A stretch of 64,000 nucleotides of DNA from Cyanobacteria bacterium P01_D01_bin.156 (GTDB lineage Bacteria; Cyanobacteriota; Cyanobacteriia; Phormidesmidales; Phormidesmidaceae): NCBI GenBank assembly GCA_039024555.1, contig JBCCQQ010000001.1, forward strand, positions 351,979 through 415,978, written 5' to 3'. Each line of letters opens with the position of its first letter. The first letter of the stretch is position 1. Shown piece after piece: positions 4,958 to 45,112 of the stretch. A model generated the notes under the pieces. It did not search any database, was not told where the DNA came from, and was given only the letters and a program-made list of their open reading frames with translations. The translations under genes were made by a program, and so were the position numbers.

Positions 4958-4973
4958 CTAAGTGAGACAAACT

Positions 4974-28606: not shown

Positions 28607-28651
28607 AAGGGCGAACGAGGGGACTCGAACCCCCGAATGGTGGAACCACAA
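28607..28651. repeat. att site: displaced 3' half of tRNA-His
   Basis: AAGGGCGAACGAGGGGACTCGAACCCCCGAATGGTGGAACCACAA, identical to 45578-45622. Confidence 0.95.
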
Positions 28652-28799: not shown

Positions 28800-29894
28800 A
28801 TGGCTAAAAAATCACCGGCTGATTTGCTGCAGGAAGCGAATCAGCGTTTGAAGGCTGGCAAGGTACCGGTGCGTATCGTGACCCAAGCCAAAACTGATCG
28901 ATTGTACTTGCGAGCAACGCTGCCGCCAAAGTCGGATGCGACTAAGCAATATTCCCATCAGCAAAGGATTTCGCTGGGAGTCTACTGTAATCCAGCTGGG
29001 ATTAAGCGAGCTGAAGCAGAAGCGCAAAAACTGAACCATGAGTTGATGTTGGATCAGTTTAATTGGTCCAACTGGCAAAAACGGAATCGCCCATTGCCAG
29101 TACAGACCGTGAATGATTGGTTGGCCGCTTTTGAGTCGGACTACTTCACGCGTCGGGAACGGAACGCCAAAAGTCAGACGACCTGGAATAAGGACTACGC
29201 ATCACCCTTTAATCGATTACCAGCAGATGTGGAGTTGACTGCAGCCGTTTTAACGAAAACCGCTGAGAGCTATCCACCAGACACCCGGTCTAGAAAGCGG
29301 GCTTGTGATGCTTATAGTGCATTAGCACGTTTTGCTGAGATTGAAATAGATCTCAAACCACTGCGGGGTAAGTATCGTCCGACGGCAGTGAGTAGAGAAG
29401 ACGTCCCGAGCGACGAGCTGATTTTGGAGTGGTGTCATCACATTCCCGATTCCAATTGGTTAAACTTCTACCGTCTGGTCGCCTGCTATGGGTTACGAAA
29501 TCATGAAGCATTTCTCGTTGATCTCGGGAAGCTCAAAACTGACCCGATTGCAACGGTGACGGGTGGCAAAACGGGCTATCGTGCTGTGGCCCTTCCGTGT
29601 CCAGTTGGCTGGTGGGAGTCTTGGTTTGAAGGACAAGACCTAACCCTACCGACCATTAACGCTCAAACGAATAGTCATTATGGCAATGTCAGTAGTCAGT
29701 ACTTTCGCCGCTTAGAGCTGCCTTTCAGAATTTATGATTTGCGCCATGCCCATGCCGGACGTATGGCGATTAAAGGAATTGATCCTGCCATTGCGGCCAG
29801 ATCTCAAGGCCATAGTCTAAAGGTGCATTCAGAGATCTACCTGAATTTTCTAGGAGCCGAGCAATTGCGTGGTCTGCTAGATGATTTGCGGTAA
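28800..29894 (+). CDS. Tyrosine recombinase / site-specific integrase
   Basis: YGLRNHE (R), GGKTG (K), YDLRHA (R), QGHS (H), SEIY (Y); N-terminal LYLRATLPPK arm-binding-like region. Confidence 0.92.
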   Translation: MAKKSPADLLQEANQRLKAGKVPVRIVTQAKTDRLYLRATLPPKSDATKQYSHQQRISLGVYCNPAGIKRAEAEAQKLNHELMLDQFNWSNWQKRNRPLPVQTVNDWLAAFESDYFTRRERNAKSQTTWNKDYASPFNRLPADVELTAAVLTKTAESYPPDTRSRKRACDAYSALARFAEIEIDLKPLRGKYRPTAVSREDVPSDELILEWCHHIPDSNWLNFYRLVACYGLRNHEAFLVDLGKLKTDPIATVTGGKTGYRAVALPCPVGWWESWFEGQDLTLPTINAQTNSHYGNVSSQYFRRLELPFRIYDLRHAHAGRMAIKGIDPAIAARSQGHSLKVHSEIYLNFLGAEQLRGLLDDLR

Positions 29895-29995: not shown

Positions 29996-30286
29996 TCACC
30001 CAGACTTTTTTACCTTATGTCTAGATGATTGTAACCACATAAACAGACCTGAAATAATCAGAGTTAAGAGTCCCAATGCGTTAAGAATAGGGTAAATAAA
30101 CTCCAGGTTAATACTGCCAAATTTGCCTCGATGTAACTCAAGCAGCCATAGAAAACCACTGGCACGACCGCCAGCAACCGCAAACTGAAACCCCATACCG
30201 GTGGTTAGCGTAAGTAATAAAGGGAAGGCAACGAAGGGAACTAACGCCCTATGGAGTTGGCGTAAACGAACTTGATTAATTGACAT
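29996..30286 (-). CDS. PepSY-associated TM helix-like small membrane protein
   Basis: LRQLHR...PLLLTLTTG...LELHRG...IISGL pattern. Confidence 0.7.
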   Translation of the reverse strand: MSINQVRLRQLHRALVPFVAFPLLLTLTTGMGFQFAVAGGRASGFLWLLELHRGKFGSINLEFIYPILNALGLLTLIISGLFMWLQSSRHKVKKSG

Positions 30287-30292
30287 TGTTGT

Positions 30293-30664
30293 TTACCGAT
30301 GCCCCCTTTTCAAAGACAGTAACAGAAATGGAGCTGCAATCATTAGTCCAAAGATGGATTCGCCAAAACCTAAAGAGAAACCATCGGCTAATTTAGCGGT
30401 TGATACTGTATGGAGGGGTGAACCTGGGCTAGCTGGTACTGATTCGATCGCTGTGACACCCTCTGCAGGGTTTTGTTGTTTCTCCAGCTCTGCTGCATCA
30501 TTGCTAGTCTCATCAGATGGCTGAGTTGTCTCCTCAATGTTGGCAGTTTCGGGTTCCGGAGAGTGAGAATGATTCGTATGGGCAAGCGCAGGCTGTGACT
30601 GACTGCTGTAGGCCAGCACTCCCCCCAGAAAAACTAATTGCAATTGAACCTTGTTGTGGGCCAT
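30293..30664 (-). CDS. Secreted His-tipped protein with C-terminal TM anchor and basic tail
   Basis: Signal peptide ending PALA, then HTNHSHS, acidic low-complexity linker, GFGES + hydrophobic helix + KRGHR. Confidence 0.7.
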   Translation of the reverse strand: MAHNKVQLQLVFLGGVLAYSSQSQPALAHTNHSHSPEPETANIEETTQPSDETSNDAAELEKQQNPAEGVTAIESVPASPGSPLHTVSTAKLADGFSLGFGESIFGLMIAAPFLLLSLKRGHR

Positions 30665-30694
30665 ATCGATTAATAGTAAATGAACTGAAAAGTA

Positions 30695-31537
30695 TTAGGT
30701 ATTTTGACGTTTAGCAGGGAGTTTACGGTGACGAAGGTATAGCCCCACAACAGCCATAAGAATTGAGATAGCAGACAACATGTGAACGATATTGAATGCT
30801 GTTCCGGGGAAGAACCAGGAATCGGTGCGTAGAAATTCAATAAAAAATCGTCCTAGCGGATACCAGATGAGATACATCAAGGCGATATCTCCGGGCTTCA
30901 GATTGTTTTGGAAGCGTCGAGATAGCCAGAAAACAAGAAAAAAGCCGATAAAGTTCCAGAGCGATTCATACAAAAATAAGGAATGAAATCGGACACTTTC
31001 TGGGTATGCGCCAAGATTGTTATAGGGGGCAAGGCGATGGGCCATATCAATCCGTAATCCCCAAGGAAGACTAGTCGGGGGACCATATAATTCTTGATTG
31101 ATAAAGTTGCCCCAACGCGCAATTGCTTGTCCTAAGGGCAGTCCTAACGCAATCCCATCTAGATAAGGCAGTGGATTCAAATTACGGAGTCGGGTGAATA
31201 CCCACAATGCCAGTCCACCCGCTATAAATCCTCCAAAAATATGAATGCCACCGCTCCAAACTTTGAGGATCTCTCCTGAATTTTGTAAAAAGTAACCTAG
31301 CCCAGAGGCATCTCGCGGAGACTGGACAAACACATAGTAGAGTCGTGCCCCGATAAACCCTGGGATTAGTATCCACAGCAGCATATCCCACAAATTATCA
31401 GGATCTTCTCCTCTACGGGCGACCTCGCGACTGGCAACGATGGATGTAGCTAAAACGCCAGCTAACATCAGCACGCCATACCAACGGAGGGCGAAAGGTC
31501 CAATGGAAAAAATGATTGGATCAACTGGGGGGAACAT
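30695..31537 (-). CDS. lgt: Prolipoprotein diacylglyceryl transferase (island copy)
   Basis: LRWYG, IGARLYYV, GGIHIFGG, GQAIARWGNFINQELYG, RFFIEFLR. Confidence 0.93.
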   Translation of the reverse strand: MFPPVDPIIFSIGPFALRWYGVLMLAGVLATSIVASREVARRGEDPDNLWDMLLWILIPGFIGARLYYVFVQSPRDASGLGYFLQNSGEILKVWSGGIHIFGGFIAGGLALWVFTRLRNLNPLPYLDGIALGLPLGQAIARWGNFINQELYGPPTSLPWGLRIDMAHRLAPYNNLGAYPESVRFHSLFLYESLWNFIGFFLVFWLSRRFQNNLKPGDIALMYLIWYPLGRFFIEFLRTDSWFFPGTAFNIVHMLSAISILMAVVGLYLRHRKLPAKRQNT

Positions 31538-31558
31538 ATCTTTAAGCTGAGGGCAATG

Positions 31559-32044
31559 CTATGAATGTTCTGAGAAAGTTGTTGTTGAACCATCTTTTTC
31601 AAACGCAAAGACTGTGTAGGGTTCAACATAGTTACCCGATTCCATGCCAGGAGAACCAATGGGCATCCCTGGTACGGCAATACCAGCAATATCCGGCTTT
31701 TCCATTAGCAGGCGAGCCACATCTTCTGCAGGGATATGGCCTTCAACAACATAGCCATCTACGACAGTGGTATGGCAGGACTTTAGGTTGTCAGGCACAC
31801 CGTACTGCTCTTTAATAGCCGTCATATCCTCCGTAATCTGGTCGTTCACTTGGAAGCCAGCGTCATGCATATGTTCAATCCACAGCCCACAACAGCCACA
31901 TGTGGGACTGCGGAAGACATTGATTTCGCTAGCCAGGGCCGCTTGGGAAATTGGTGCCGGTGCCGAAGCCAGAGCACAGCCGGTGATAATCAGGCTCATG
32001 GTGATTAGGGCAAGGCTCCCAACTTTTTTAATGCGATGGATCAT
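31559..32044 (-). CDS. DUF411 (CopG-like) metal-binding lipoprotein
   Basis: Lipobox IITGC; SPTCGCC, SCHT, EGHIPA, VPGMPIGSPGME. Confidence 0.9.
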   Translation of the reverse strand: MIHRIKKVGSLALITMSLIITGCALASAPAPISQAALASEINVFRSPTCGCCGLWIEHMHDAGFQVNDQITEDMTAIKEQYGVPDNLKSCHTTVVDGYVVEGHIPAEDVARLLMEKPDIAGIAVPGMPIGSPGMESGNYVEPYTVFAFEKDGSTTTFSEHS

Positions 32045-32091
32045 GATTTCGATGTGAACTGGGGTAGATGAACAATAAAACTGGAATTCTA

Positions 32092-32994
32092 TTAGAAACT
32101 GACTGGCGCATCAGTTTTTACTGATTGTGTTTGATAAGTAGCGGATAGACGATCTAACTGTTGCATCAATGTGATAACGCCTAGTAATAACAGGGCTGAG
32201 AAGACATCGCCGCCCCAACTGTCATGTAACCACTTAAACCAAGCTGTTTGATCAGTGCCATGGAAAAAGGTGAGTAATGTGTTGCGCAACAGATTCCCCA
32301 TAAAGCTAATTAAAACAGCGCCAGTTAGCATGGTAGTGACTTTCCAACGGTGGCGAAGATTATCTGTCCCGTGGAGCAGTAACAGGGCTACATAAAGACA
32401 GGTCATAAGCATTTTTAGCCCAGCGCAGTAAGGGGCGACTTCGACAATGCGATCGCTAACCAAAATATAGGACTGGTCCACCGTTACAGCCATACCAAAC
32501 ATGCTCAGAACGGTGCCGACGATAATGGCAATCACCCGCTGGAGAGGCATCAGGTAAGGGGCGACTAGATACGAGATATCGGTCGGAGTGGCCAGCAGCA
32601 CAAATAGCAACGGCATCCCCATCAACCGTATCCCTGGCAATCCTTTAAGGTAAAGGACCAGACCTGCCAGCAAGATTGGCAGGGATAGGTTGATCAGGTT
32701 TGTGAGGGCACCGGTGTAGAAAATAAGTGCAAGGGCAATAAACGCAATGCCCAGTAAATGTAATTGGTCAGGTAGTTTGCGCCAGCAGGCACGTTCCTGC
32801 CATGCCGCCATCCCAGCGTAGGGAAAACCGATGATGGCGTAGGAAAAGTATTCATGTTCTATGCTGACGGATTTATTGAGCCAGCCGTCGATCCAATGCA
32901 TCAGTAAAGGACCGTATAGGATGGCTAGCAGCAGTGCGATCGCACTTTCCGCTGGGTAGCGCTGGATAGATTTTGAGAGTTGCATAGCAGGCAC
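32092..32994 (-). CDS. Exosortase, cyanoexosortase B (CrtB)-like
   Basis: WIDGWLNKSVSIEHEYFS; catalytic Cys (VEVAPYCAGLK), Arg (NLLRN) and His (WLHDSWGG); multiple TM. Confidence 0.85.
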   Translation of the reverse strand: MPAMQLSKSIQRYPAESAIALLLAILYGPLLMHWIDGWLNKSVSIEHEYFSYAIIGFPYAGMAAWQERACWRKLPDQLHLLGIAFIALALIFYTGALTNLINLSLPILLAGLVLYLKGLPGIRLMGMPLLFVLLATPTDISYLVAPYLMPLQRVIAIIVGTVLSMFGMAVTVDQSYILVSDRIVEVAPYCAGLKMLMTCLYVALLLLHGTDNLRHRWKVTTMLTGAVLISFMGNLLRNTLLTFFHGTDQTAWFKWLHDSWGGDVFSALLLLGVITLMQQLDRLSATYQTQSVKTDAPVSF

Positions 32995-33027
32995 GATTTC
33001 AGTCCTGCACTAGGCTGGCAGACAATG

Positions 33028-33044
33028 ATGAAATAGAAATGAAA
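33028..33044 (-). promoter_or_regulatory. CopR-type direct-repeat box upstream of the exosortase-lgt operon
   Basis: TTTCAT-TTCTA-TTTCAT on the minus strand; CAGCCT 10 nt further. Confidence 0.7.
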
Positions 33045-33050: not shown

Positions 33051-33851
33051 CTAGGACATCTCTTGAATCTGCACAACGGCTGATACGGGTTCTGGTACAT
33101 TGGCTTCCACCGTGCGGGCAGCGGAGATAATCAAGGCCGCTCCCATCAGGGCCATGATGGCATTTTCAGCAAAACTGACCACGCCCAGAGGCGCTTTAGA
33201 ATTGCCACCAACACAGGCACAGTTAAGGGCCAACTTATCGATGTAGACAGCTTTTACCACCGAAGCGATGCCGCTGACACCTACCGCCAGGGAACCAATT
33301 CCTGTTGCCAACGGTGCAATACCTGCGAGAAAACCCAACCCAATGGCCAGTTCCGCAAAGGGATACACCTTGGCATAGGGTTTTAACCGTTGCGTAATTA
33401 AGTCATATTTAGCAAAGCTTTCGGCAAAAGCGTCTATGTCCATTAGCTTGAGCGAGGCCAACATGCTGAGGGAAATGCCCATGAAGCCGCTGAGCCCCAG
33501 AGATGTAGCCAAGGCCATCAGTCCAGCGGTGGAGAATAGGGCAATGACGGGGGTGTAGGAATACTCGGCTGTTTCGGCGTCTACATCGAAGTGACTGGCC
33601 AAGTCACTGTATCCACCAATGCGTTCATCACCAAAGAAAATCTGGGGTGTGGTGGGAACCTGATGCTCAGCTTTAAAGGCGGCAACGGTATCAGACGAGG
33701 TTAAATGTATGTCCTCGAACTCAATCCCTTTTTGCTGCAATAGGGCAACGGCTCGCAGACCCCAAGGGCACTGATGGTCTGGGGTGACCATGCGGTAGAG
33801 ACGCACGGGATGGGCAATAGCAGTAGGCGTTTTAGAAATAGTTGTGGTCAT
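33051..33851 (-). CDS. Glutaredoxin-MauE/DoxX fusion redox membrane protein
   Basis: HQCPWG, TTPQIF, RIGGYSDL glutaredoxin domain; YPFAEL and LNCACVGG MauE domain. Confidence 0.88.
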   Translation of the reverse strand: MTTTISKTPTAIAHPVRLYRMVTPDHQCPWGLRAVALLQQKGIEFEDIHLTSSDTVAAFKAEHQVPTTPQIFFGDERIGGYSDLASHFDVDAETAEYSYTPVIALFSTAGLMALATSLGLSGFMGISLSMLASLKLMDIDAFAESFAKYDLITQRLKPYAKVYPFAELAIGLGFLAGIAPLATGIGSLAVGVSGIASVVKAVYIDKLALNCACVGGNSKAPLGVVSFAENAIMALMGAALIISAARTVEANVPEPVSAVVQIQEMS

Positions 33852-33901
33852 GGTAATGGCTCCTGAAGGCGTGTAGCGGTTCCAGGTGATTCGATACTCC
33901 T

Positions 33902-33933: not shown

Positions 33934-33970
33934 GGGGGCTAGCGCTACGGTCACATCTAGAAATAAGACG

Positions 33971-34032: not shown

Positions 34033-34731
34033 GTGATGCGAGTATTACTGGTGGAAGATGAGCCAGATTTAGGGCAGGCGATTAAGCGCACCTTGACCCA
34101 AGAAGCCTATGTGGTGGACTGGTTGCAGTCAGGGGGCGAGGCCCTGGCCTACCTGGAATGTGATGTGAATCTTTACACCGTGGCCGTGTTTGATTGGATG
34201 GTGCCGGAATTTTCTGGCTTAGAGCTGTGTGCTTGGTTGCGTGAGCATCACCATGGTTTGCCCGTATTGATGCTCACGGCTAAAGACCGGGTAGAAGATC
34301 GAATTGCAGGGCTGGATGCTGGGGCCGATGACTATTTGGTTAAACCCTTTAGCATGGCAGAACTGTTGGCCCGACTGCGTGCCCTGCGACGACGGCCAGT
34401 AGATTTTCAGACAGCGCAGTTGACCTGTGGTCCGTTATTGTTGGATTGCGATCGCAGACTCGCCTTTCTCCATTCAGGCACATCCGCTGAACAACAGATT
34501 GAACTCACCCAAAAAGAGTTTCAGTTGTTGAAGTACTTTATGGAACATCCCAATCAAATTCTCACCCGTGACCAAGTGTTAACCCAGCTGTGGGAGATTG
34601 GGGCTGAACCCAGCAGCAATGTGGTGGCTGCTCAAATGCGACTATTGCGACGTAAGCTGGGACCGTATGACCACACGATTGAGACCGTCTATGGCATGGG
34701 ATATCGGTTTATTCCGGCACAAAGCGAGTAA
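34033..34731 (+). CDS. OmpR-family response regulator (CopR/RppA/NrsR-like)
   Basis: LLVEDE, FDWMVP, MLTAKD, GADDYLVKPF, SNVVAAQMRLLRRKL, IETVYGMGY. Confidence 0.9.
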   Translation: MMRVLLVEDEPDLGQAIKRTLTQEAYVVDWLQSGGEALAYLECDVNLYTVAVFDWMVPEFSGLELCAWLREHHHGLPVLMLTAKDRVEDRIAGLDAGADDYLVKPFSMAELLARLRALRRRPVDFQTAQLTCGPLLLDCDRRLAFLHSGTSAEQQIELTQKEFQLLKYFMEHPNQILTRDQVLTQLWEIGAEPSSNVVAAQMRLLRRKLGPYDHTIETVYGMGYRFIPAQSE

Positions 34732-36061
34732 GCCACAAAATCAGCTATTCCAGCAATCACGCCTCCAACTAGCCGCCTGGTATGCCGGGGTGATGGGGGT
34801 GATTTTGGCATTGTTGGGATTTGGCATGTATCGAGCCATTGCCCATGCCCACGCAGTGACGGTTGACAGAGAAATTAAATCGGTTGCTGATGCGCTTAAA
34901 TTAATACTCTCTGATCAGCAACAACTACAACAGCTGCCCGCCCAAATCCTGCCCGATCTATGTCTGGGTGAGCAGCGTTGTCTGGAACCGATACAACAAA
35001 CAAGCAGCCCCTATCTGCAAGGTTATTACATCCGTATTATCAGCCCAGCGGGAGAACTGTTAGCGACCGCAGGAGCCCGACCTCAAGGTATACCCGTCAC
35101 TATTCCAACAGCAACCTGGCAAACGGTGTGGGATGACAGTAATCAGCACTATCACCAAGTCGCCTTAGAGCTTTCTCCTACGATAGGGCCAACAGCTCAA
35201 GCGCCGGAGAGCTGGGCTTATTTAGTCGTGGGGCGCTCATTTCAGGATTTTGATCAATACCTGGCGTCAGTTCGCTGGAGGATTTTGCTAGGGTTATTGC
35301 TGGCGTTGGCTTTGGTAGCACCAGCCAGCTGGTGGCTGGCGACTCTGGCCATGCGTCCTATCTATCGCTCCTACAGCCAAATTCAACAATTTACAGCGGA
35401 TGCAGCCCACGAGTTACGCACGCCCCTAGCCGCCATTCGAGCCACGGTAGAGTCTGTTTTACGATTACCTCACCTGTCAGAAGCGGATGCTCAAGATACG
35501 CTGGGCGTCATTCATCGCCAAAACCAGAGGCTGTCCAACCTGGTCAGTAATTTACTATTGCTCTCGAAGCTGGATATTCAGGCGTATCCCACTAAGCAGG
35601 CCCCTTGCAATTTGGTGGATTTAATTCATGATATTGCCGAAGAGATGGCCGCGTTTGCCCTACAAAAAAAGATTGCTTTAGATATTGATGTGCAAACCGA
35701 CGCCGTAGTCACTGTTTTAGGGGATGAAGAAAATCTCTATCGGTTGTTGCTCAATTTAGTCAACAACGCCTTAACCTATACGCCAGAAGGCGGACGTGTA
35801 ACACTCACGCTTCAGCAACAGCAGCAGCAGGCGCTGATTTTAGTGACGGATACCGGTGTGGGTATCGCACCGGAAGACCAGGCGAAAATCTTTGACCGGT
35901 TTTATCGGGTGGATACGGCTAGATCTCGACAGACGGGCAATTCAGGGTTAGGGCTTGCGATCGCAACCGCCATTGCCCAAGCCCACAAAGGGACTATTAC
36001 CGTTTCCAGTCAACCTGGCCAAGGCAGCACATTCACGGTTTCTCTCCCCATTTCATTATGA
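34691..36061 (+). CDS. Sensor histidine kinase (CopS/RppB/NrsS-like); start uncertain (ORF opens at 34598)
   Basis: LAAWYAGVMG TM1, FTADAAHELRTPL, NLVNNALTYT, DTGVGI, FDRFYRVD, SGLGLAI. Confidence 0.9.
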   Translation: MAWDIGLFRHKASKPQNQLFQQSRLQLAAWYAGVMGVILALLGFGMYRAIAHAHAVTVDREIKSVADALKLILSDQQQLQQLPAQILPDLCLGEQRCLEPIQQTSSPYLQGYYIRIISPAGELLATAGARPQGIPVTIPTATWQTVWDDSNQHYHQVALELSPTIGPTAQAPESWAYLVVGRSFQDFDQYLASVRWRILLGLLLALALVAPASWWLATLAMRPIYRSYSQIQQFTADAAHELRTPLAAIRATVESVLRLPHLSEADAQDTLGVIHRQNQRLSNLVSNLLLLSKLDIQAYPTKQAPCNLVDLIHDIAEEMAAFALQKKIALDIDVQTDAVVTVLGDEENLYRLLLNLVNNALTYTPEGGRVTLTLQQQQQQALILVTDTGVGIAPEDQAKIFDRFYRVDTARSRQTGNSGLGLAIATAIAQAHKGTITVSSQPGQGSTFTVSLPISL

Positions 36062-36113: not shown

Positions 36114-36854
36114 ATGGAATCTCATAGTATTTTGCTGGTCTCTAATAATGACCAAACTAGCCAGCTAGTTCAGATGGAACTCGGTCTAGAAGGCTATCGA
36201 GTCATGTTTGAGCAAGACAGCACGTCAGGATTTATGACCGCCCGTCGCCATGAACCCCAGATACTGATTCTAGACACAGCAGTCCCAGGATTATCTCCCT
36301 TGGAAATATGTGCCGCATTAAAGCAAACGTCCCCTGATATCAGGATTATTCTTCTCACTGATGCTAATAACATTAATTTGCTCGACCCTGTTGCGGATGA
36401 TTACCTGTTCAAGCCCCTAAGTCTCACCGAATTAATACTAAGGGTAAGGCTCAATTTGAAACGTCACTCCCCTGAGAAAGCACGGCTATTGCAGTTTGAA
36501 GACCTACGGATTAACTGTGACAGTCGTACTGTGTATCGTGGTGAGCGCTTGGTTGAGCTGACTGTCAAAGAATATAACTTGTTGACCTATTTTATGGGGC
36601 ATCCACAGCAGGTGATTGAACGTGACCGCTTGCTTGAGGAAGTCTGGGAGTATGCATTTATTGGCAACAACGATGTGTTGTATGTGTGCATGCGCAGCCT
36701 CAGAAACAAATTAGAAGCCAATGGAGAACCCCGCCTAATACAAACCGTACGCGGGATTGGCTATGTTCTCAGAACTCCCGTAGGTGGGTATAAAGAAGAC
36801 GCCAATGAGGATGAAGACTCAACTTTGCCTGAGTTAGCCACCACCCATCGATAA
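36114..36854 (+). CDS. OmpR-family response regulator with atypical receiver
   Basis: Winged helix LTVKEYNLL...LIQTVRGIGY; receiver reads LVSNN instead of LVEDD. Confidence 0.85.
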   Translation: MESHSILLVSNNDQTSQLVQMELGLEGYRVMFEQDSTSGFMTARRHEPQILILDTAVPGLSPLEICAALKQTSPDIRIILLTDANNINLLDPVADDYLFKPLSLTELILRVRLNLKRHSPEKARLLQFEDLRINCDSRTVYRGERLVELTVKEYNLLTYFMGHPQQVIERDRLLEEVWEYAFIGNNDVLYVCMRSLRNKLEANGEPRLIQTVRGIGYVLRTPVGGYKEDANEDEDSTLPELATTHR

Positions 36855-36856
36855 TA

Positions 36857-36889
36857 TTTCATGCTGATTTCACAATCGGTCGATATAGT
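36857..36889 (+). promoter_or_regulatory. CopR-type box and -10 element upstream of the efflux operon
   Basis: TTTCAT-GCTGA-TTTCAC, 10 nt, TATAGT. Confidence 0.78.
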
Positions 36890-36924
36890 CTGAAACGCGC
36901 ACGCTGAAGTCGTAGATTAGCGGA

Positions 36925-38664
36925 ATGAACCAGCCACCTGAATCTCCTGAAACATCCGTATCAGAAGAAAGTTACGATATCGAGAATGCTGAACCTTCCC
37001 GCCCCTGGTGGAAATCATCCGGTAGAGCCCTGTTAGGTCTGGGCGTTTTTGCCGTCTTGAGTACGGGCATTGTCGGTGCTACCCACATGCTCTCCTCCTC
37101 GGCCATGGAAGGCCACGATATGGGCGGCCATGGCGGCCATGACATGTCGGGCCACGATATGGGCGGCATGTCCCATGATGAGATGATGCGGGTGGATGGG
37201 GCCTTTAACCCAACACCGGTTACCGTGGAGGTGGTCAAAGCAGCTCCGCTAGATGCCAGTGTTAATTACACTGGGGCGATTTTGCCCTACACAGAGGTCA
37301 CGGTTTATCCCCGTGTGGCCGGTCAGCTCTCAAACTATGATGTTTACCCCGGTGACTGGGTCGATGCTGGGCAGCTGTTAGCTAACCTGGATGCCATTGA
37401 GCGGGTCAGCCAGACAAGTGAAGCTCAAGCATCGGCCACAGCCCTGCTTGCAGCTGCTGACGCCAGCCAGTTTGAGCTAGAAGAACAACAACAGGAAATC
37501 ATCCAAATTCAGGCGGACCTCGACTATCTCATTCTCGACCGAGATCGCTTTGAGACCTTGACGGCAGAAGGGGCCACCTCCCAATCTCAATACGACTTGG
37601 CCGCATCCCAGGTAGATGCCAAACGAGCCATGTTAGTTGGTGCTAAGACCAAACTCACCCGGCTGCAATCCAAGGTAGCCAGCGATCAGGCCCAGGTAGA
37701 ACGTGCTCGTGCTCAGATCAATACAGCATCTGCCTTTGAAGGCTACACCCAAATTTCAGCGCCAATTAGCGGCATTGTGCAGGCCCGCATGGCCGATCCA
37801 GGCGTTGTTGTTCAGCCTGGAATGGGAATTTTCAAAATTGGTGATTACCAGCAGGTAAGACTCCAGGCCAATGTGGCTCAACAGGATGCTAACCAGATTC
37901 GGTTGGGAACACCGATTGTGGCTAAGATCCAGGGTACGAATGCAGGTGTCATTCAAGGAGAAATCACCAGCATTTTTCCCCAAGCGGATTTGGAGACTCG
38001 CACGGTCACCGTAGAAGCCGTGGTGGATAACCCAGAACGACGATTGCTGTCGGGGCAGTTTGTGGATATGGAGATTATCACGCAGCGACGTACCGAGGCG
38101 CTTGCAGTGCCGCAAAAAGCTGTTGTGAGCTTTGACGGTGAGGCAGCAATCTGGGTGGTAAATGGCAGTAACGCCCAGCGGCGACGGGTGACAACGGGGA
38201 TGATGAGTCACGATCGCATCGAGATTACCGATGGTCTCAAGGCAGGCGATCAGGTAATTACCTCGGGCCACAGCCGCCTGATTGAGGGAGGAGCCGTGAC
38301 CATTGTAGATGCCCTGGGTAACCCCACCGATAGCTTTGTGAGCACTGCAGACAGCTCGTTAGAACTCTCTCTAGTCAGTCCTGACACGGTAAAAGCGGGT
38401 AAAAATGAGATTACCTTTATCTTGAAAAATATAGAGACCGGGGAACGGGTAACCGTATCTGCCGATGATTTAGCCCTCGACATCACCATGCCTATGAAAA
38501 ACATGGCACCGATGATGGCCAAAGTAGAACTGTCAGCCACGGACAACCCTGGAGAATTCAAGGTCAACACCCATCTAGGCATGAAAGGTGACTGGATTAT
38601 AGATGCCAACGTGACCGATGACGAACAGGCTGGCAAGGCTCGCCTCACCGTGCCAGTTAATTAA
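36925..38664 (+). CDS. RND periplasmic adaptor (MFP) with His/Met-rich N-terminal repeat and C-terminal YtkA/FixH-like domain
   Basis: GHDMGG repeats, VYPRVAG, ISAPISG, LLSGQFV; C-terminal MPMKNMAPM...GMKGDW. Confidence 0.88.
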   Translation: MNQPPESPETSVSEESYDIENAEPSRPWWKSSGRALLGLGVFAVLSTGIVGATHMLSSSAMEGHDMGGHGGHDMSGHDMGGMSHDEMMRVDGAFNPTPVTVEVVKAAPLDASVNYTGAILPYTEVTVYPRVAGQLSNYDVYPGDWVDAGQLLANLDAIERVSQTSEAQASATALLAAADASQFELEEQQQEIIQIQADLDYLILDRDRFETLTAEGATSQSQYDLAASQVDAKRAMLVGAKTKLTRLQSKVASDQAQVERARAQINTASAFEGYTQISAPISGIVQARMADPGVVVQPGMGIFKIGDYQQVRLQANVAQQDANQIRLGTPIVAKIQGTNAGVIQGEITSIFPQADLETRTVTVEAVVDNPERRLLSGQFVDMEIITQRRTEALAVPQKAVVSFDGEAAIWVVNGSNAQRRRVTTGMMSHDRIEITDGLKAGDQVITSGHSRLIEGGAVTIVDALGNPTDSFVSTADSSLELSLVSPDTVKAGKNEITFILKNIETGERVTVSADDLALDITMPMKNMAPMMAKVELSATDNPGEFKVNTHLGMKGDWIIDANVTDDEQAGKARLTVPVN

Positions 38665-38748
38665 AGTCATATCCCTACTGTTTTGCTGCATAGGGAACAG
38701 CGGGGACGCTGCTCACACACGTCTACACGCACTCAAACCAATAAAATC

Positions 38749-39219
38749 ATGAAAAAACTGTTATTGAGTCTAATTGCAGTAAGCGCATTGGCGACTGGCT
38801 GTGAAGGGGCATCAACTTCTTCTGAGCCTACTATATCAGGGGCATTGGAGGCTGCTGCCAATGATAATAAAACAGAAATGAACAGCATGGAGGGCATGGA
38901 AGCCACCAGTGAGGGGAATGTAGAAATTACTCTGGTGAGCCCTGATGCAGTACCTATGGGAGATGCGGAACTTGTTGTTGCGGTGAAAGATGCGGCCACA
39001 GGTAAACCGGTCACCACTGAGAATTTAGAGGTAGAAATCTTTATGCCCATGGACGGCATGGACGATATGACCACTGAAGCAGAAATTTCACCGGATGCTG
39101 AACCAGGTCAATACAAGGTTGCTACTTACTTGGGTATGGCAGGCATGTGGGCTGTTAACACCACTGTTGACGAAGGAGAACAACAGGGTAAAGCTCACTT
39201 TATGTTTGAAGCACAATAA
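38749..39219 (+). CDS. Met-rich YtkA/FixH-like lipoprotein
   Basis: MKKLL...LATGC lipobox; MNSMEGM, FMPMDGMDDM, GMAGMW. Confidence 0.8.
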   Translation: MKKLLLSLIAVSALATGCEGASTSSEPTISGALEAAANDNKTEMNSMEGMEATSEGNVEITLVSPDAVPMGDAELVVAVKDAATGKPVTTENLEVEIFMPMDGMDDMTTEAEISPDAEPGQYKVATYLGMAGMWAVNTTVDEGEQQGKAHFMFEAQ

Positions 39220-39341
39220 ACAGCAGTTGAGCCATTAGAAGTAGTCCATCTCCTAATGGCTGAATCTAAACCCCAGTGTCTCAAATCGAATAAATCTCTT
39301 CCAGAGAGCCTTCCTAAGCAATTCATGCGCCACCGCTTTCC

Positions 39342-42300
39342 ATGAAAGAATTTCTCACCCGCTGGTCTATTAAAAATCCGGTTGTTGTCACCGCTCTTTA
39401 TATTGCGGTGGTTATGCTGTCCTTACTGACGCTGTTTCTACTCCCGGTGCGGATGATGCCCTACGTGGAAAGCCCTCTGGTGTCAGTGGTATCTATGGCC
39501 CCTGGTGCATCACCAGAGGAAATTGAAACCTATATCACTAAACCCATCGAACAGCGGCTAAGCGTTTTGGATGGGGTGCGATTTATCCGGTCTAGTTCCC
39601 AAAAAGATAATTCCATCGTCACCATTCAGTTTGCTTGGGGAGGCAATGTCGATAAGGCGGTACAGTCGGTGCAAAACATTATGACAGCGGCTGAAGGTGA
39701 CCTGTTATTTGATGGCATTAACTTTAGATCCTACTGGGTGCTACCGATTGATCCATTAAATCGTCCTGTACTGACGCTGGCGCTCAGGGGTGAGAATTGG
39801 GACCCCCTCCAACTGAGAGAATTTGCTGACAATACGTTAGTGGATCGGCTGACTCAGGTGGAAGATGTGCAGGCTGTATCTATTTTTGGGGGCTACCGTC
39901 GTCAGCTACAGATTATTGTAGATCGTCAGAAGCTAGCGGCCTATGGACTGTCCATTGTGCAGGTACGGGATGCCATTGATGCCAATAACATTAGCCAAAG
40001 TGCAGGGACTTTGACGCAGGGGGATAGCGAAATTCTGGTGCGCACCGATGAGCGCACCCTGGGTGCTGCCGAGGTCATGGATTATCCCGTTTTAGAACAA
40101 AATGGTCGCGTGGTGTATGTGCGAGATGTCGCAACGGTTAAAGACACCTATGAAGAGCGCCGCAGCGGCTATCGCTATAACGGAGAATCGGCCCTCGCGG
40201 TCAATGTGATTCAGCAACCAGACTCTAGTTCTCCCCAGGTAATTAAGCGGGTCAGGATGGAACTGGAGGCGATCCAAAACGAATACCCTGGCATCGAATT
40301 TCAGGAAGCCTATGACAACTCCTACTTAGTTAACCTGATTGTCAGCAGTACGTTCCAGGAGCTGTTGGTGAGTGTCGTTCTTGCTGGACTGGTGATTTTG
40401 ATCTTCCTCGAAGACTTTCGATCCACGGCGATCATTATGATCTCTATTCCCACTAGCTTGGCCCTTTCTACCCTGCCGTTTATTCCCATCGGCATGTCCC
40501 TCAACTCGTCTACGCTGATTGGCATGATGATGGCCATTGGTAAGTTGGTGGATGATTCGATTATTGTGCTCGACTCCATTGATCAAAAATTACGAGCAGG
40601 GTTGATGCCCGTTCAGGCGTCAATTAAGGGTACTGGGGAAGTCTTTTTAGCCAGTGCAGCGGCAAGCTGTGTGATGATTGCGGCATTAGTGCCCACCATT
40701 CTCTCGGGTGGACTCACAGGTCTGATGTTTGTGGGCATTGTGTGGCCCATGGTGTTTGCGTTTGTGGCTTCGTTGCTGGTGTCAATTACGCTGATTCCGC
40801 TGGTGGCTGCGTTTACCCTCAAGCCTCATTCTGATCAACCCCAGCGGCGTACCTGGCTACAGCTGCTGACTACACCTGTGCGTTTTGGCTTTAACAAATT
40901 AGAACGGGGCTATGCCTGGTTGTTAGATCTGTGTATGCGGAATCGAGAGATCACCCTGGCCATTGCAGGGGCTTCGGTGGTTCTGGCAATCATGCTTTAC
41001 GGTCTGATTCCCCAGGAGATGATGCCCCTGGGAGATTCGGGACAGTTTGTCGCCACCTTAGAAATGGAGGCAGGTACCTCTTTTGCAGCCACTGATGCCG
41101 CAGCAGGTCGGTTTGAAGACATTATCTTGCAACAGCCAGAAGTAGAGAAAGTGTCTGCTCAGATCGGCTTTGAGCTAACGCGAAATAGCACCTATTTTAC
41201 GGGCTATAGCATGGGCGGTGTGAATACGGCATCAATGACGGTGACTATCACTCCCCTGAATGAACGGCGACGGGACATTTGGGAGATTATGGACGGCATT
41301 GAAGCGGAGGCTAAACAGACTATTCCCGGTATTCGTCGGATCGGAATTAAGGAAATGGGAGTAGATGTAATGGCCACCTCTGCGGCTCCCATTCAGCTAG
41401 CGGTATATGGCGATGACTTAGAGACACTCCATCGCTTAGCTCAAGGTGTTTTAGACATTGCCGAAGCCAATCCTGACCTCAAGATGCCGTTTACGAGTTC
41501 GGCCCTGTCTCAGCCCGAGTATCGGCTTAATATTGATCGCCGCCGTGCCCAGGAGCTAGGTCTGACGGTACAGGCGGTGTCCCAGCAAGCCTACTATGCC
41601 CTCAATGGCGGTATGACCCGCCGTTATTACAATCGCCCCAACCTCCGGCAGAATTCCATTCTGGTGCGGTATGACGAAAATGCTCGCGGTACGATGCAGG
41701 ATCTGTCAAATACTTACATCACCACCAAAACAGGCCAACAGGTACCCCTGAGCACAGTGGCGACACTTGAACCTCGCCAAGGTCCCACCTTGATTGAGCG
41801 GGTGAATGGGAAGCGGGTGGTGTACGTGAATGGCTATTACCGTAAGAATGCCCCTGCCTCTATGGATTTGTCCATGGCGGTGGCAATGCAGGCAGGCGAA
41901 GAACTAAACTTTCCCCCCGGCTATGGTGTCGATTCCATGGGGGACATGACCGATATGATGATCGAATTTGCCCGGTTGCTCAAGGGATTATTGGTATCGC
42001 TAGTGCTGCTGTACATCATTTTGGTGATTCAGTTTGGTTCGTTTATCCAGCCCCTGGTGATGATGCTCTCTGTGCCGCTACAGCTTGTGGGGGTATTTGG
42101 TGCACTGTTACTGTTCAATCACACCCTGTCCACCGTGTCGATTTTAGGAATTGTGATTCTCTCTGGGGTTTCGCTATCGGCAGCGATTCTGTTACTAGAG
42201 CTGATTTTAGCGAAGCGAAAGGAGGGCGTGCCGCGTGCGATCGCAATTCGTCAGGCTGGCCCTATCCGCCTTAAAGCCATTGTCATGACCACCGTCACCA

Positions 42301-42521
42301 CCCTGATCGTCATCGTCCGATTAGCCTTCTTCCCAGAAACAGGAATGGACGCCTATTCACCCATTGCTACTGTTATTTTGGGTGGCCTAGTGATGTCTAC
42401 GGTTCTCACATTAGTTATAGTTCCGGTGGTTTATTCCTACGTGGATGACGCGACAGAGGCATTCAAACGCCTAAAACAACCCTCAAAGAGAAAGCAGCTA
42501 GCTCGTGCAAAGCTTTCTTAG
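39342..42521 (+). CDS. RND efflux permease (AcrB/CusA superfamily), Met-rich
   Basis: 1059 aa; PGASPEEIETYITKPIE, GKLVDDSII, RLKAIVMTT, ATVILGGL. Confidence 0.93.
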   Translation: MKEFLTRWSIKNPVVVTALYIAVVMLSLLTLFLLPVRMMPYVESPLVSVVSMAPGASPEEIETYITKPIEQRLSVLDGVRFIRSSSQKDNSIVTIQFAWGGNVDKAVQSVQNIMTAAEGDLLFDGINFRSYWVLPIDPLNRPVLTLALRGENWDPLQLREFADNTLVDRLTQVEDVQAVSIFGGYRRQLQIIVDRQKLAAYGLSIVQVRDAIDANNISQSAGTLTQGDSEILVRTDERTLGAAEVMDYPVLEQNGRVVYVRDVATVKDTYEERRSGYRYNGESALAVNVIQQPDSSSPQVIKRVRMELEAIQNEYPGIEFQEAYDNSYLVNLIVSSTFQELLVSVVLAGLVILIFLEDFRSTAIIMISIPTSLALSTLPFIPIGMSLNSSTLIGMMMAIGKLVDDSIIVLDSIDQKLRAGLMPVQASIKGTGEVFLASAAASCVMIAALVPTILSGGLTGLMFVGIVWPMVFAFVASLLVSITLIPLVAAFTLKPHSDQPQRRTWLQLLTTPVRFGFNKLERGYAWLLDLCMRNREITLAIAGASVVLAIMLYGLIPQEMMPLGDSGQFVATLEMEAGTSFAATDAAAGRFEDIILQQPEVEKVSAQIGFELTRNSTYFTGYSMGGVNTASMTVTITPLNERRRDIWEIMDGIEAEAKQTIPGIRRIGIKEMGVDVMATSAAPIQLAVYGDDLETLHRLAQGVLDIAEANPDLKMPFTSSALSQPEYRLNIDRRRAQELGLTVQAVSQQAYYALNGGMTRRYYNRPNLRQNSILVRYDENARGTMQDLSNTYITTKTGQQVPLSTVATLEPRQGPTLIERVNGKRVVYVNGYYRKNAPASMDLSMAVAMQAGEELNFPPGYGVDSMGDMTDMMIEFARLLKGLLVSLVLLYIILVIQFGSFIQPLVMMLSVPLQLVGVFGALLLFNHTLSTVSILGIVILSGVSLSAAILLLELILAKRKEGVPRAIAIRQAGPIRLKAIVMTTVTTLIVIVRLAFFPETGMDAYSPIATVILGGLVMSTVLTLVIVPVVYSYVDDATEAFKRLKQPSKRKQLARAKLS

Positions 42522-42559
42522 GAACGATAGTCCAAAGGGCTCACTAACCACATCATAAT

Positions 42560-42602
42560 TTTAGTTGCGAGATACAACTAAATAGTTGCATAATCGAACT
42601 AT
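42560..42602 (+). promoter_or_regulatory. Tandem palindromic operators upstream of marR (likely autoregulatory)
   Basis: TTTAGTTG-N7-CAACTAAA then ATAGTTG-N7-GAACTAT. Confidence 0.65.
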
Positions 42603-42620
42603 TAGTTTGATTTTATCTGC

Positions 42621-43052
42621 GTGCCCAATTCTCCTGATTTACAAGGCCAGTTAATAGCGCTAATTCGTGCATTTGGTTTGCACCGACCCGACCAAACACC
42701 CTGTGGACAGACGGTAACGGTGGCAGAAGCCCATGCCCTGATGGAGCTATCTAATGGGCAGTTGCTGTCTCAAAATGAACTATCCACACGTCTCAGCCTA
42801 GAAAAAAGCACAGTCAGCCGTCTGGTCAAAATCTTAGAACGACGAGGATGGCTCCAACGTAGTCGCAGTGAAGCAGATCGCAGAGTCATACAGCTGACAC
42901 TGACAAAAAGCGGACAAAAAGCAGCGGGGCAACTTGCCACTGCACGTCGAGAAAAGTTTGATCGCATACTCTCTGCAATTCCCAAGGAACAACAGACAGT
43001 TGTACTCGATTCCCTAAATATTCTTGTGGAGGCTATCCATGAAAGTGAATAA
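42621..43052 (+). CDS. MarR family transcriptional regulator
   Basis: TPCG, LSLEKSTVSRLV, DRRVIQLTLTKSG. Confidence 0.9.
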   Translation: MPNSPDLQGQLIALIRAFGLHRPDQTPCGQTVTVAEAHALMELSNGQLLSQNELSTRLSLEKSTVSRLVKILERRGWLQRSRSEADRRVIQLTLTKSGQKAAGQLATARREKFDRILSAIPKEQQTVVLDSLNILVEAIHESE

Positions 43053-43545
43053 TCAACTGATCCATCGGCCAAAATTCGTTTGGCTAGCGGGCTTGATTGC
43101 GCTAGCCGTTGTTATCGGAGCCGGTCTACGGCAGACTGTTCTTCATCAGCGACAGGCTGAAGTGGCTATGCGAGGGGCACAGATCATGCCCTTTGATTTA
43201 GAGACAACAACCCACCACTTTGAGCCATTATCAGATGGAGGGCTGCAAACCGTCATTGCAGATGCCCCCATAGACCCCGAGCAGGTAAAACTTATTCAGA
43301 GCCATCTGGAAGAAGAGGCTGGCAAATTTCAATCCGGTGATTTCTCTGATCCTGCCGCTATTCACGGGGATGCTATGCCCGGACTAAAACAGCTCAGAGC
43401 GGGTTACCGTGCCATGACAGTTGAGTACACAGCGCTGCCAGATGGCGGGCAAATTCGCTACACCGCTCAGCAGCCTATTCTTGTTACAGCAGTGCATGAC
43501 TGGTTTGCAGCACAGCGTTCAGACCATGGTCATCATGCCCAGTAA
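43039..43545 (+). CDS. Exported His-containing hypothetical protein
   Basis: GGAGG RBS, N-terminal TM; MPFDLETTTHHF, IHGDAMPG, DHGHHA. Confidence 0.75.
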   Translation: MKVNNQLIHRPKFVWLAGLIALAVVIGAGLRQTVLHQRQAEVAMRGAQIMPFDLETTTHHFEPLSDGGLQTVIADAPIDPEQVKLIQSHLEEEAGKFQSGDFSDPAAIHGDAMPGLKQLRAGYRAMTVEYTALPDGGQIRYTAQQPILVTAVHDWFAAQRSDHGHHAQ

Positions 43546-43548
43546 AGA

Positions 43549-43581
43549 TTTCATCGTCATTTCACAATTTGTCGCTACCAT
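43549..43581 (+). promoter_or_regulatory. CopR-type box and -10 element upstream of the multicopper oxidase
   Basis: TTTCAT-CGTCA-TTTCAC, 10 nt, TACCAT. Confidence 0.75.
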
Positions 43582-43657
43582 CAAACTCTATTGCAATCAT
43601 TAGCTCCTCTAGTCTCCTGAGAGCTTTTCGGTTCAATCAGTAAGCGTTATTCCGTCC

Positions 43658-45112
43658 ATGAGTTTCCAACAGGTCCCAATTAAGCGCAGGAATTTTCTAA
43701 AACTGAGTGCAGTGACAACAGCATCAGTTATGTTGTCCCAATGCTCCAGGCAAACGTCTTTTGTTGAAGAAGCCTCTTCTAATCTGCTGCTACCAGATGT
43801 AATCAAAAGTGAGAACGGCTTACTTAGCCTGGATTTAGAAGCGAGTGCTCAGTCAGTTTCCTTAAATGGCAAAACCGCTAACCTATTGACCTACAACCAG
43901 CAATCGCCAGGACCTCAGCTGGAGGCGAAGCCAGGTGATACAGTACAAATTCGCTTTACCAATCGACTCAATCAGCCGACTAACCTGCACTTCCACGGGC
44001 TGCACATTTCCCCCACAGGCACCGGAGATAACGTTTTTCTAGAAATCTCTCCTGGCGAAAGCCATACCTACGAGTTTCAAATTCCTGAAGACCATCCAGC
44101 GGGAACGTTTTGGTACCATCCCCACTATCACGGGTTGGTGGCTGAACAATTGTTTGCAGGACTGGCAGGATTGTTTATTGTGCGGGGAGCCTTAGACGAT
44201 ATCCCTGAAGTGAAAGCGGCCAAGGAGACCGCCTTAGTCCTTAAAGATTTAGCCCTAGATCGCCGAGGCAATATTCCTAACCCTGGTCATATGGCTCAAA
44301 TGACCGGACGCATTGGTGATTTGCTACTGGCCAATGGTCAGCTTAATCCAGAAATCAAGGTGGCCCAGGGAGAGTTGCTGCGATTAAGGCTGCTGAATGC
44401 TTCGCCGTCCAGGTTTTTCCAGCTTTCGTTGGAAGCGCATCCACTCTTGTTGATCGCTACAGATGGAGGTGCGATCTCAGCTCCCATAGAATTGGATAAC
44501 TTAGTCCTAGCACCTGGCGAACGAGCTGAAGTTTTGATTCGTTCCACCCAAACATCGGGACAGTACCGTTTACTTAATACTCTCTTCAATCCAGCCCAGG
44601 GAATGATGGGCGGCAGCGGAATGATGGGCGACCCATCAAGGCAAAGACGTACTGAAACAGTTGCAACACTGGCCTACAGTGGGACGACGACAGAAACACC
44701 TTTACCCACTGCATTATTGCCCATAGCGCCCCTCCCCGAACCCCAGAGAGTGAGGCAGTTTACGCTGAATCACGAACACGGCATGGTGTTTTTAATCAAT
44801 GGACAAGCCTTTGACCATAGCCGCGTCGATACCCAAGTGAGCCTCGGTACCGTCGAAGATTGGGAAATCATCAATACCGGGGCCATGGCCCATCCCTTTC
44901 ATGTCCATGTCAACAAATTTCAGGTGATTAGCCGCAACGGGCAAACCGAACCCTACGCGGCCTGGAAAGATGTTGTTTCCATCAACCCTGGTGAACGAGT
45001 ACGCATTCGTATGGCCTTCCAAAACTACACCGGTAGAACCGTTTATCACTGCCATGTACTAGACCATGAGGATCGAGGCATGATGGGAATTCTCGATATT
45101 CAATCGGCTTAG
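43658..45112 (+). CDS. Multicopper oxidase (CueO/SufI family), Tat-exported, probable lipoprotein
   Basis: KRRNFLK...LSQC; LHFHG, WYHPHYH, HPFHVH, HCHVLDHEDRGMM. Confidence 0.95.
   Translation: MSFQQVPIKRRNFLKLSAVTTASVMLSQCSRQTSFVEEASSNLLLPDVIKSENGLLSLDLEASAQSVSLNGKTANLLTYNQQSPGPQLEAKPGDTVQIRFTNRLNQPTNLHFHGLHISPTGTGDNVFLEISPGESHTYEFQIPEDHPAGTFWYHPHYHGLVAEQLFAGLAGLFIVRGALDDIPEVKAAKETALVLKDLALDRRGNIPNPGHMAQMTGRIGDLLLANGQLNPEIKVAQGELLRLRLLNASPSRFFQLSLEAHPLLLIATDGGAISAPIELDNLVLAPGERAEVLIRSTQTSGQYRLLNTLFNPAQGMMGGSGMMGDPSRQRRTETVATLAYSGTTTETPLPTALLPIAPLPEPQRVRQFTLNHEHGMVFLINGQAFDHSRVDTQVSLGTVEDWEIINTGAMAHPFHVHVNKFQVISRNGQTEPYAAWKDVVSINPGERVRIRMAFQNYTGRTVYHCHVLDHEDRGMMGILDIQSA

What the first reader, a model, noticed from the sequence alone, without database searches (positions are those of the whole stretch)
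29996..33044. Candidate new system: metal-inducible exosortase + Lgt envelope-protein lipidation/sorting cassette
Seen: five tightly spaced minus-strand genes in a mobile island. They encode a cyanoexosortase-B-like protein with intact Cys/Arg/His triad, a DUF411 lipoprotein, Lgt, a His-tipped TM-anchored secreted protein and a PepSY-TM protein. They sit behind the same TTTCAT-N5-TTTCAT box found at the island's metal-resistance genes. No cyanoexosortase-associated partner gene or EPS export genes, the usual CrtB context, are adjacent. Known: copper interferes with lipoprotein maturation by binding the N-terminal Cys, some Firmicute copper-resistance elements carry extra lgt plus a lipoprotein transacylase (Lit), and exosortase-family proteins are Cys-dependent transpeptidase/acyltransferase-like enzymes. 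Inference: this is a copper-induced lipoprotein maturation or surface-anchoring module in which the exosortase works alongside Lgt. I do not know of a described system with this combination.
Basis: partly seen in the sequence, partly recalled or inferred. Interest (0 to 1): 0.85.

Follow-up and report, generated by a model that had tools for sequence, protein, structure and literature searches.

The report
Copper-island exosortase paired with CopG
A copper-resistance island in a cyanobacterium carries a second, distinct copy of the membrane enzyme that sorts surface proteins (an exosortase), always placed directly before the copper protein CopG and behind a likely copper-responsive switch, where it probably serves as a spare that keeps surface-protein processing going under copper stress.

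Summary
The five genes, the catalytic triad and the box are real. They lie in a 17-kb island at tRNA-His, and both crtB and lgt are second copies. The exosortase belongs to a separate, strongly supported CrtB clade (here CrtB2; 38 sequences) under purifying selection, with its own motif changes. The conserved unit is box–crtB2–copG, not crtB–lgt. The DUF411 gene is the known copper protein CopG, here a lipoprotein; it follows crtB2 in 16 of 16 distinct loci. The box precedes crtB2 in 13 of 13 loci and 0 of 81 housekeeping crtB genes, and it also precedes Synechocystis copM and copB. Lgt follows in only 5 of 15 loci, and a second Lgt lineage, plus a spare Lnt, entered metal loci without crtB2. 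CopG (87 of 173 genomes) and the His-tipped protein (42 of 173) mostly occur without crtB2 (9 of 173), and sister islands have deleted crtB2. Best reading: a copper-induced spare exosortase, with Lgt as an independent spare serving lipoproteins such as CopG. Induction, substrate and activity are untested. My literature searches found no exosortase described in a copper regulon.

The parts
32092..32985 (-). crtB2: second-copy cyanoexosortase B of a distinct copper-locus clade (ORF opens at GTG 32994; likely start ATG 32985)
   Evidence: TIGR04156 over cut-off; clade support 1.0 and 100/100; triad invariant; dN/dS 0.09-0.15
33028..33044 (-). TTTCAT-N5-TTTCAT direct repeat, likely CopR/RppA box, 42 nt before the likely crtB2 start
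   Evidence: same repeat before Synechocystis copM and copB
31559..32044 (-). copG (DUF411) with lipobox ITGC; invariant downstream neighbour of crtB2
   Evidence: PF04214; PDB 6WIS match E 1e-35; lipobox-like Cys in relatives; adjacency
30695..31537 (-). second-copy lgt, optional member; long branch, with G140A and P186S at otherwise near-invariant sites
30293..30664 (-). secreted protein: His at predicted mature N-terminus, acidic low-complexity linker, G[LF]GE motif, TM helix, basic tail
   Evidence: alignment A5; no family hit; 42 of 173 family genomes
29996..30286 (-). small PepSY-TM-like membrane protein, partner gene of the His-tipped protein
   Evidence: sub-cut-off Pfam hit; atlas score 0.96 to a cluster with 16% PF03929; pairing
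33051..33851 (-). glutaredoxin-MauE fusion, same strand, directly upstream of the box
34033..36061 (+). rppA/rppB two-component pair, the genome's best match to Synechocystis CopR/CopS (60% and 45%)
36114..45112 (+). rest of the island cargo: response regulator, Met/His-rich RND adaptor, YtkA lipoprotein, RND pump, MarR regulator, unknown protein, multicopper oxidase; three more boxes at 36051, 36857, 43549
28800..29894 (+). integrase-like gene at the island's left end
   Evidence: weak PF00589 hit, E 0.038; position next to the att repeat
28607..28651 (.). left attachment repeat (45 nt, copy of part of tRNA-His)
45580..45653 (-). tRNA-His(GTG), carrying the right attachment repeat 45578-45622

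Best explanation
The island carries a distinct second-copy exosortase (CrtB2) as the first gene of a conserved box-crtB2-copG unit; the box likely makes it copper-induced through the island's CopRS-like pair, and the enzyme probably acts as a spare that keeps cleaving and sorting C-terminally tagged envelope proteins when copper would impair the housekeeping Cys enzyme. Shown: the clade, the gene order, the box, the intact triad and purifying selection. Inferred: induction by copper, copper sensitivity of housekeeping CrtB, and the substrates (most likely the genome's ordinary PEP-CTERM proteins). Lgt is read as a separate, optional spare that lipidates CopG, YtkA and other lipoproteins. The two enzymes are co-regulated, not steps of one pathway.
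For: Distinct clade: 38 of 202 sequences, FastTree support 1.0; 100/100 on a 53-sequence subset, with no genome's own housekeeping CrtB inside. Box 41-45 nt before the start in 13 of 13 crtB2 loci with upstream DNA and in 0 of 81 housekeeping crtB. Same box before Synechocystis copM and copB, operons reported as CopRS-controlled and copper-induced (PMC4335983, abstract and passages). copG directly downstream in 16 of 16 distinct loci; crtB2 and CopG distances correlate over 10 loci (rho 0.75; kin share history). dN/dS 0.085-0.149 in the 8 of 55 unsaturated pairs. Triad kept; non-catalytic His33, His52, His79 and Cys113 mostly lost, fewer His in 7 of 7 within-genome pairs. The same regulon recruits other spare envelope enzymes: a box-led M23 peptidase-lgt-oxidase-ZIP-lnt run in G511, which has another lnt, and a second lgt in a copper locus of G497. 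Precedent: copper-induced lgt2/lit2 in Listeria and Enterococcus (PMC8275575, passages). Twelve PEP-CTERM-like proteins exist in the genome, none in the island.
Against: No expression or activity data. crtB2 is dispensable: a 5' relic in G020, weaker relics in G009 and G003, an internal deletion in G150, a frameshift in L192, and a contig that skips the gene. 79 of 87 CopG-bearing genomes lack an intact crtB2. The motif changes (EYFSHG to EYFSYA; F197M; Y265F) fit a change of substrate as well as copper tolerance. His52 is not visibly conserved in other exosortase types. For Lit, copper was found to bind the substrate rather than the enzyme, so enzyme poisoning is not established even in the precedent. 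No CrtB-associated partner gene accompanies crtB2.
Confidence: 0.45

Rival explanations
1. CrtB2 is a specialised sorting enzyme for the His-tipped protein: it cleaves at a new G[LF]GE-TM-basic tag and releases or anchors a copper-binding protein at the cell surface.
For: The tail has the motif-TM-basic layout described for sorting signals (bioRxiv 2023.06.07.544157, passages). All 8 genomes with intact crtB2 encode the protein, against 17 of 79 other CopG-bearing genomes (not independent). CrtB2 has clade-specific changes near its conserved motifs.
Against: 34 of the 42 genomes with this protein have no intact crtB2. It travels with the PepSY-like gene, not with crtB2. It is absent within about 8 kb of crtB2 in L189 and L190. 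The window's genome has a second copy of the pair far from crtB2.
Confidence: 0.2
2. crtB2 is a passenger, captured once between the box and copG and now being lost; it works as an ordinary CrtB with no copper role.
For: Repeated deletions that keep box-copG intact; only 9 of 173 family genomes; in the 401-genome class sample only one listed match outside the family, on a contig identical to G023's.
Against: Purifying selection equal to that on copG and lgt; retention across lineages only 55-65% identical; fixed clade-specific residues.
Confidence: 0.15
3. One reading: the exosortase works with Lgt on lipoprotein N-termini (a Lit/Lnt-like step) or otherwise matures CopG.
For: The CopG lipoprotein is always next to crtB2; lgt follows in 5 of 15 distinct loci, and these Lgts group together (support 0.977, 0.68 with another sample); no lgt in 20 of 20 long CopG loci lacking crtB2.
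Against: No lgt in 10 of 15 loci; lgt recruited to metal loci without crtB2; Lnt present in 5 of 5 genomes; CopG N- and C-termini look alike with and without crtB2; no paper seen gives exosortases an acyl-transfer activity.
Confidence: 0.1
4. CrtB2 has been repurposed as a copper-binding membrane partner of CopG, using Cys190, His257 and gained Met residues.
For: Met197 (97% of the clade, 0% of others) lies seven residues after Cys190 on one predicted helix; mean Met count 11.6 against 5.9.
Against: In within-genome pairs the Met excess is 1 or less in 4 of 7; Arg237 and the whole catalytic signature are kept.
Confidence: 0.1

Closest known systems
Cyanoexosortase B (CrtB, TIGR04156), studied in Nostoc punctiforme (bioRxiv 10.1101/2024.12.02.626408)
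   Same: Passes the family cut-off; same Cys/Arg/His triad and about 50% identity.
   Different: Second copy in its own clade; no aminotransferase, TIGR04533 partner or polysaccharide export genes beside it; led by a CopR-type box and followed by copG; EYFSHG replaced by EYFSYA.
Copper-induced lgt2/lit2 element of Listeria monocytogenes and Enterococcus (as described in PMC8275575)
   Same: Mobile copper-resistance element with spare envelope-protein processing enzymes, including a second lgt.
   Different: No Lit here; the extra enzyme is an exosortase; Gram-negative host with its own Lnt; lgt is optional.
CopG (DUF411; PDB 6WIS/6WJE)
   Same: Sequence match E 1e-35 over 120 residues, with the CGCC and CHT motifs; copper-cluster context.
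   Different: Carries a lipobox here and is preceded by an exosortase gene.
Synechocystis CopRS regulon (copMRS, copBAC)
   Same: Same direct-repeat box; the island's RppA/RppB are the genome's best matches to CopR/CopS.
   Different: No copM in this island; the RND pump is only about 24% identical; no exosortase or lgt in the 12.5-kb pSYSX stretch fetched.

Membership tests
Cyanoexosortase B (TIGR04156) | HMM score over the curated cut-off | tested here: met
   372.9 against 300; four other clade members 377-387
Cyanoexosortase B (TIGR04156) | Cys/Arg/His catalytic triad | tested here: met
   C190, R237, H257 invariant
Canonical crtB locus | Adjacent aminotransferase and TIGR04533 partner gene | tested here: not met
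   Absent at crtB2 loci; at least one of the two present at 30 of 30 housekeeping loci and both at the genome's own C25 locus
Cyanoexosortase B (TIGR04156) | Processes PEP-CTERM proteins | not testable with these tools
   12 PEP-CTERM-like candidates in the genome by a simple pattern, none in the island; activity needs an experiment
Dedicated exosortase with its own cognate target | Strict co-occurrence of enzyme and tagged target | tested here: not met
   His-tipped protein in 42 of 173 genomes, intact crtB2 in 8; only the one-way inclusion holds
Lgt (TIGR00544) | HMM score over cut-off and signature motif | tested here: met
   189.5 against 118.9; RWGNF.N.E kept, but the preceding Gly is Ala and HP is HS in the window copy
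lgt2/lit2 copper element | Lit (lipoprotein intramolecular transacylase) gene | tested here: not met
   No island protein scanned hit such a family; the two small unassigned proteins are 96 and 123 aa, against 204-218 aa for Lit
CopG (DUF411) | Sequence match to the solved structure | tested here: met
CopG (DUF411) | Copper cluster binding and oxidoreductase activity | not testable with these tools
   Activity known only through a passage in PMC13707694; the primary paper was not held
CopRS regulon | Direct-repeat box as at copM and copB | tested here: met
   that CopR binds this exact sequence is recalled, the primary paper was not held
CopRS regulon | Induction by copper | not testable with these tools
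   needs RNA data or RT-qPCR
PepSY_TM (PF03929) | Pfam gathering score | tested here: not met
   19.6 against 28.8 bits; atlas gives a lead only

The most novel reading that the evidence does not exclude
CrtB2 is a copper-specific exosortase subfamily with its own substrate: under CopR control it processes a new C-terminal sorting tag (G[LF]GE-TM-basic) on a His-tipped copper-binding protein, or acts on the CopG lipoprotein, so that protein sorting itself is a copper-defence step.
Probability: 0.25. Interest if true: 0.78.

Novelty: new variant of a known kind. Interest (0 to 1): 0.56.

Why it matters
Exosortases are known from biofilm and polysaccharide loci, and their chemistry is still unsettled. 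A subfamily wired to a copper regulon would extend the idea that copper attacks envelope-protein maturation from lipoprotein enzymes to C-terminal sorting. It also offers a small, likely inducible system with natural deletion variants for testing what an exosortase cleaves and attaches. The reach is limited: one cyanobacterial family, about 5% of its genomes, frequent loss.

Tried and rejected
Five-gene cassette as a fixed unit: rejected. Recent duplication of the genome's own crtB: rejected by the trees. CrtB2 as a stand-in for a missing Lnt: Lnt found in 5 of 5 genomes. Exosortase-CopG fusion: none among 32 longer DUF411 proteins (weak test). Fold searches of the CrtB2 model (mean pLDDT 84): no Foldseek match at E 0.001 and only helical-hairpin matches under Z 8; uninformative. 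The complex prediction of CrtB2 with CopG and the profile search of protein representatives were not available, so binding and reach beyond the sampled genomes stay open. No RNA holder listed. No match of crtB2 in plasmids or of its motif in viral contigs; the genome-contig scan returned one unrelated CrtB locus. A DNA profile found no crtB2 relic at E below 0.001 upstream of copG genes that lack the gene, and missed the short G020 relic. VPEP near the end of the glutaredoxin-MauE protein follows the last helix and is not conserved; dropped. Sigma-70 and terminator scans were at chance level. Twenty loci of other exosortase types showed no copper genes from my query set. Haft 2012, Giner-Lamia 2012 and Hausrath 2020 were not held. 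Searches of earlier scan findings returned nothing.
Full report
OBSERVATION. The five genes are present as described. The exosortase passes the cyanoexosortase B cut-off and Lgt passes its own. DUF411 passes Pfam, the PepSY_TM hit is below cut-off, and the 123-aa protein has no family. DUF411 matches the solved structure 6WIS at E 1e-35, and two papers equate DUF411 with CopG (PMC12341060 and PMC13707694, passages). The genes lie in a 17-kb island bounded by a 45-nt repeat, one copy within tRNA-His. The genome has a second crtB (51% identical, contig C25) and a second lgt (57%, C54). The C25 crtB sits between an aminotransferase and the TIGR04533 partner, the context reported for Nostoc crtB (bioRxiv 10.1101/2024.12.02.626408; abstract, introduction and passages).

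THE BOX. Five sites with up to one mismatch occur in the window against 0.55 expected, all in the island. The genome-wide count alone is weak. The same repeat precedes copM and copB on Synechocystis pSYSX, and the island's RppA/RppB are the genome's best matches to that plasmid's regulator pair. Those operons are reported as CopRS-controlled and copper-induced (PMC4335983, abstract and passages; PMC4890671, passage on two direct repeats in the copM promoter). That CopR binds this exact sequence is recalled; the primary paper was not held. Copper induction here is therefore inferred.

A DISTINCT CLADE. Of 202 unique CrtB sequences, 38 form a clade with the window protein (FastTree support 1.0, stem 0.35). 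IQ-TREE on 20 of these and 33 others gave 100/100. Named members include P0018 (Sphaerothrix gracilis) and P0020 (Phormidesmis sp.). The triad is invariant. EYFSHG occurs in 0 of 38 clade members and 155 of 164 others; CAGLKMx[MV]T in 37 of 38 and 0 of 164. His33, His52, His79 and Cys113 are mostly lost and Met197 is gained. The mean Met excess is large, but it is 1 or less in 4 of 7 within-genome pairs, so I give it little weight. dN/dS is 0.085-0.149 in the 8 of 55 pairs that were not saturated, similar to copG (0.07-0.20) and lgt (0.05-0.12; no pair with the window's lgt was usable).

RECURRENCE. A clade-specific pattern found 9 of 173 family genomes and 8 metagenome stretches; a protein search added G287. 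That makes 18 records. I dropped two as exact duplicates (G287 of G023; L191 of G511); three more (L186, L187, L193) are 95-99% like G494 or each other and are not independent. copG follows crtB2 directly in 16 of 16. The box lies 41-45 nt before the start in 13 of 13 loci with upstream DNA and within 250 nt of 0 of 81 housekeeping crtB. The longer loci carry copper oxidases, P-type ATPases, RND pumps, MerR regulators or rppAB. Contigs from other studies bridge the window's gene order at about 90% identity (X3 record 1, 30093-32457; X9 record 27).

LGT IS OPTIONAL AND INDEPENDENT. lgt follows copG in 5 of the 15 distinct loci where the next gene is visible (L188 is cut). The ten without it are all of the 55-57% identity type, so this may be a single loss. 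In favour of a link, these Lgts group together (0.977; 0.68 with a different sample) and 20 long CopG loci without crtB2 had no lgt. Against it, of 19 further lgt loci examined, two lie in clear metal loci with no crtB2 beside them and belong to a far-removed Lgt lineage. In G497 lgt follows the His-tipped and PepSY-like pair in a copper cluster, and the genome has no crtB2. In G511 a box leads an M23 peptidase, lgt, a copper oxidase, a ZIP transporter and a second lnt. Five of 5 genomes tested have Lnt. The window's Lgt is on a long branch with changes at conserved sites and may be under relaxed selection. Contigs that join the His-tipped gene to copG without lgt exist in three runs.

CRTB2 IS DISPENSABLE. 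CopG occurs in 87 of 173 genomes, and in many loci without crtB2 the box stands directly before copG. G009's sister island is 79-87% identical in DNA over most shared genes but lacks crtB2 and lgt. G020 keeps the first dozen codons of crtB2, G150 has an internal deletion and L192 a frameshift. CopG proteins with and without crtB2 are interleaved on the tree, and crtB2 and CopG distances correlate (rho 0.75, 5 of 5000 permutations, 10 loci; kin are not independent). This fits an old box-crtB2-copG unit with repeated loss.

SUBSTRATE. No PEP-CTERM protein lies in the crtB2 loci scanned; the genome has 12 candidates elsewhere by a simple pattern. The His-tipped protein has an invariant His after the predicted signal cleavage and a G[LF]GE-TM-basic tail, the layout of a sorting signal (bioRxiv 2023.06.07.544157, passages). 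All 8 genomes with intact crtB2 encode it, against 17 of 79 other CopG-bearing genomes, but 34 of its 42 genomes lack intact crtB2. It is a candidate, not a dedicated target.

MECHANISM. Most likely (0.45), copper activates the island's CopRS-like pair, which induces crtB2-copG(-lgt). CopG handles periplasmic copper as a lipoprotein, Lgt supplies spare lipidation, and CrtB2 supplies spare C-terminal sorting, perhaps with fewer copper ligands near its catalytic Cys. Gene order, box, clade and selection are shown; induction, copper sensitivity and substrate are inferred. The nearest precedent is the copper-induced lgt2/lit2 element (PMC8275575, passages), where copper bound the substrate rather than the enzyme. 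Rivals: dedicated enzyme for the His-tipped protein (0.2), passenger (0.15), Lgt-coupled lipoprotein step (0.1), copper-binding partner of CopG (0.1).

NOVELTY. Searches for 'cyanoexosortase' (10 papers, 9 listed), 'exosortase' with 'copper' (30 papers, 25 listed, one opened) and a five-term search on second lgt copies (0 papers) showed no exosortase in a copper regulon. I saw listings only for most of these, subscription papers are missing, and no supplements were read. All parts except the His-tipped protein belong to or resemble known families, so I file this as a new variant of a known kind. Interest 0.56: a recurrent, selected and apparently undescribed link, narrow in range and without functional data.

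Noticed in passing
L278 (G511:C261), 1839-8242, minus strand: A CopR-type box leads an M23 peptidase, lgt, a small copper oxidase, a ZIP transporter and a second lnt: a metal locus with spare Lgt and Lnt.
   Followed up: partly
L099:9324-10247 and L101:9442-10368 (G503, G504): Another second-copy crtB lineage, outside the copper clade, directly after a VKOR-family gene and a sigma-factor-like pair.
   Followed up: no
window 33900-33935, minus strand: Inverted repeat ACCCTA...TAGGGT within a TTGAC-led promoter-like stretch upstream of the glutaredoxin-MauE gene; a similar stretch precedes merR in related loci. Resembles a MerR/CueR-type promoter (recalled).
   Followed up: no
window 29996-30664 and L035:8084-8697 (G000:C53): The His-tipped protein and the PepSY-like protein form a recurring pair in copper loci; a second pair in this genome sits between a regulator gene and merR. 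The His-tipped family is in 42 of 173 family genomes and has no Pfam or NCBIfam model.
   Followed up: partly
L067 (G287:C51): A 5,982-bp contig identical to G023's copper locus, in a genome of another family where no other crtB was found: recent transfer or mis-binning.
   Followed up: partly
family-wide: Two deep Lgt types (about 42% identical) coexist in this family; many genomes carry one of each.
   Followed up: partly
window 42621-45112 and L036:7834-10279 (G000:C80): The MarR-unknown protein-multicopper oxidase trio has a second copy elsewhere in the genome (50-78% identical).
   Followed up: no
G000:C1:7928-9019: A second integrase 53% identical to the island's, elsewhere on the same contig.
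   Followed up: no
P0130, P0131, P0150-P0152, P0159: DUF411 occurs fused to glutaredoxin, CusF-like and DUF305 domains in other organisms.
   Followed up: no
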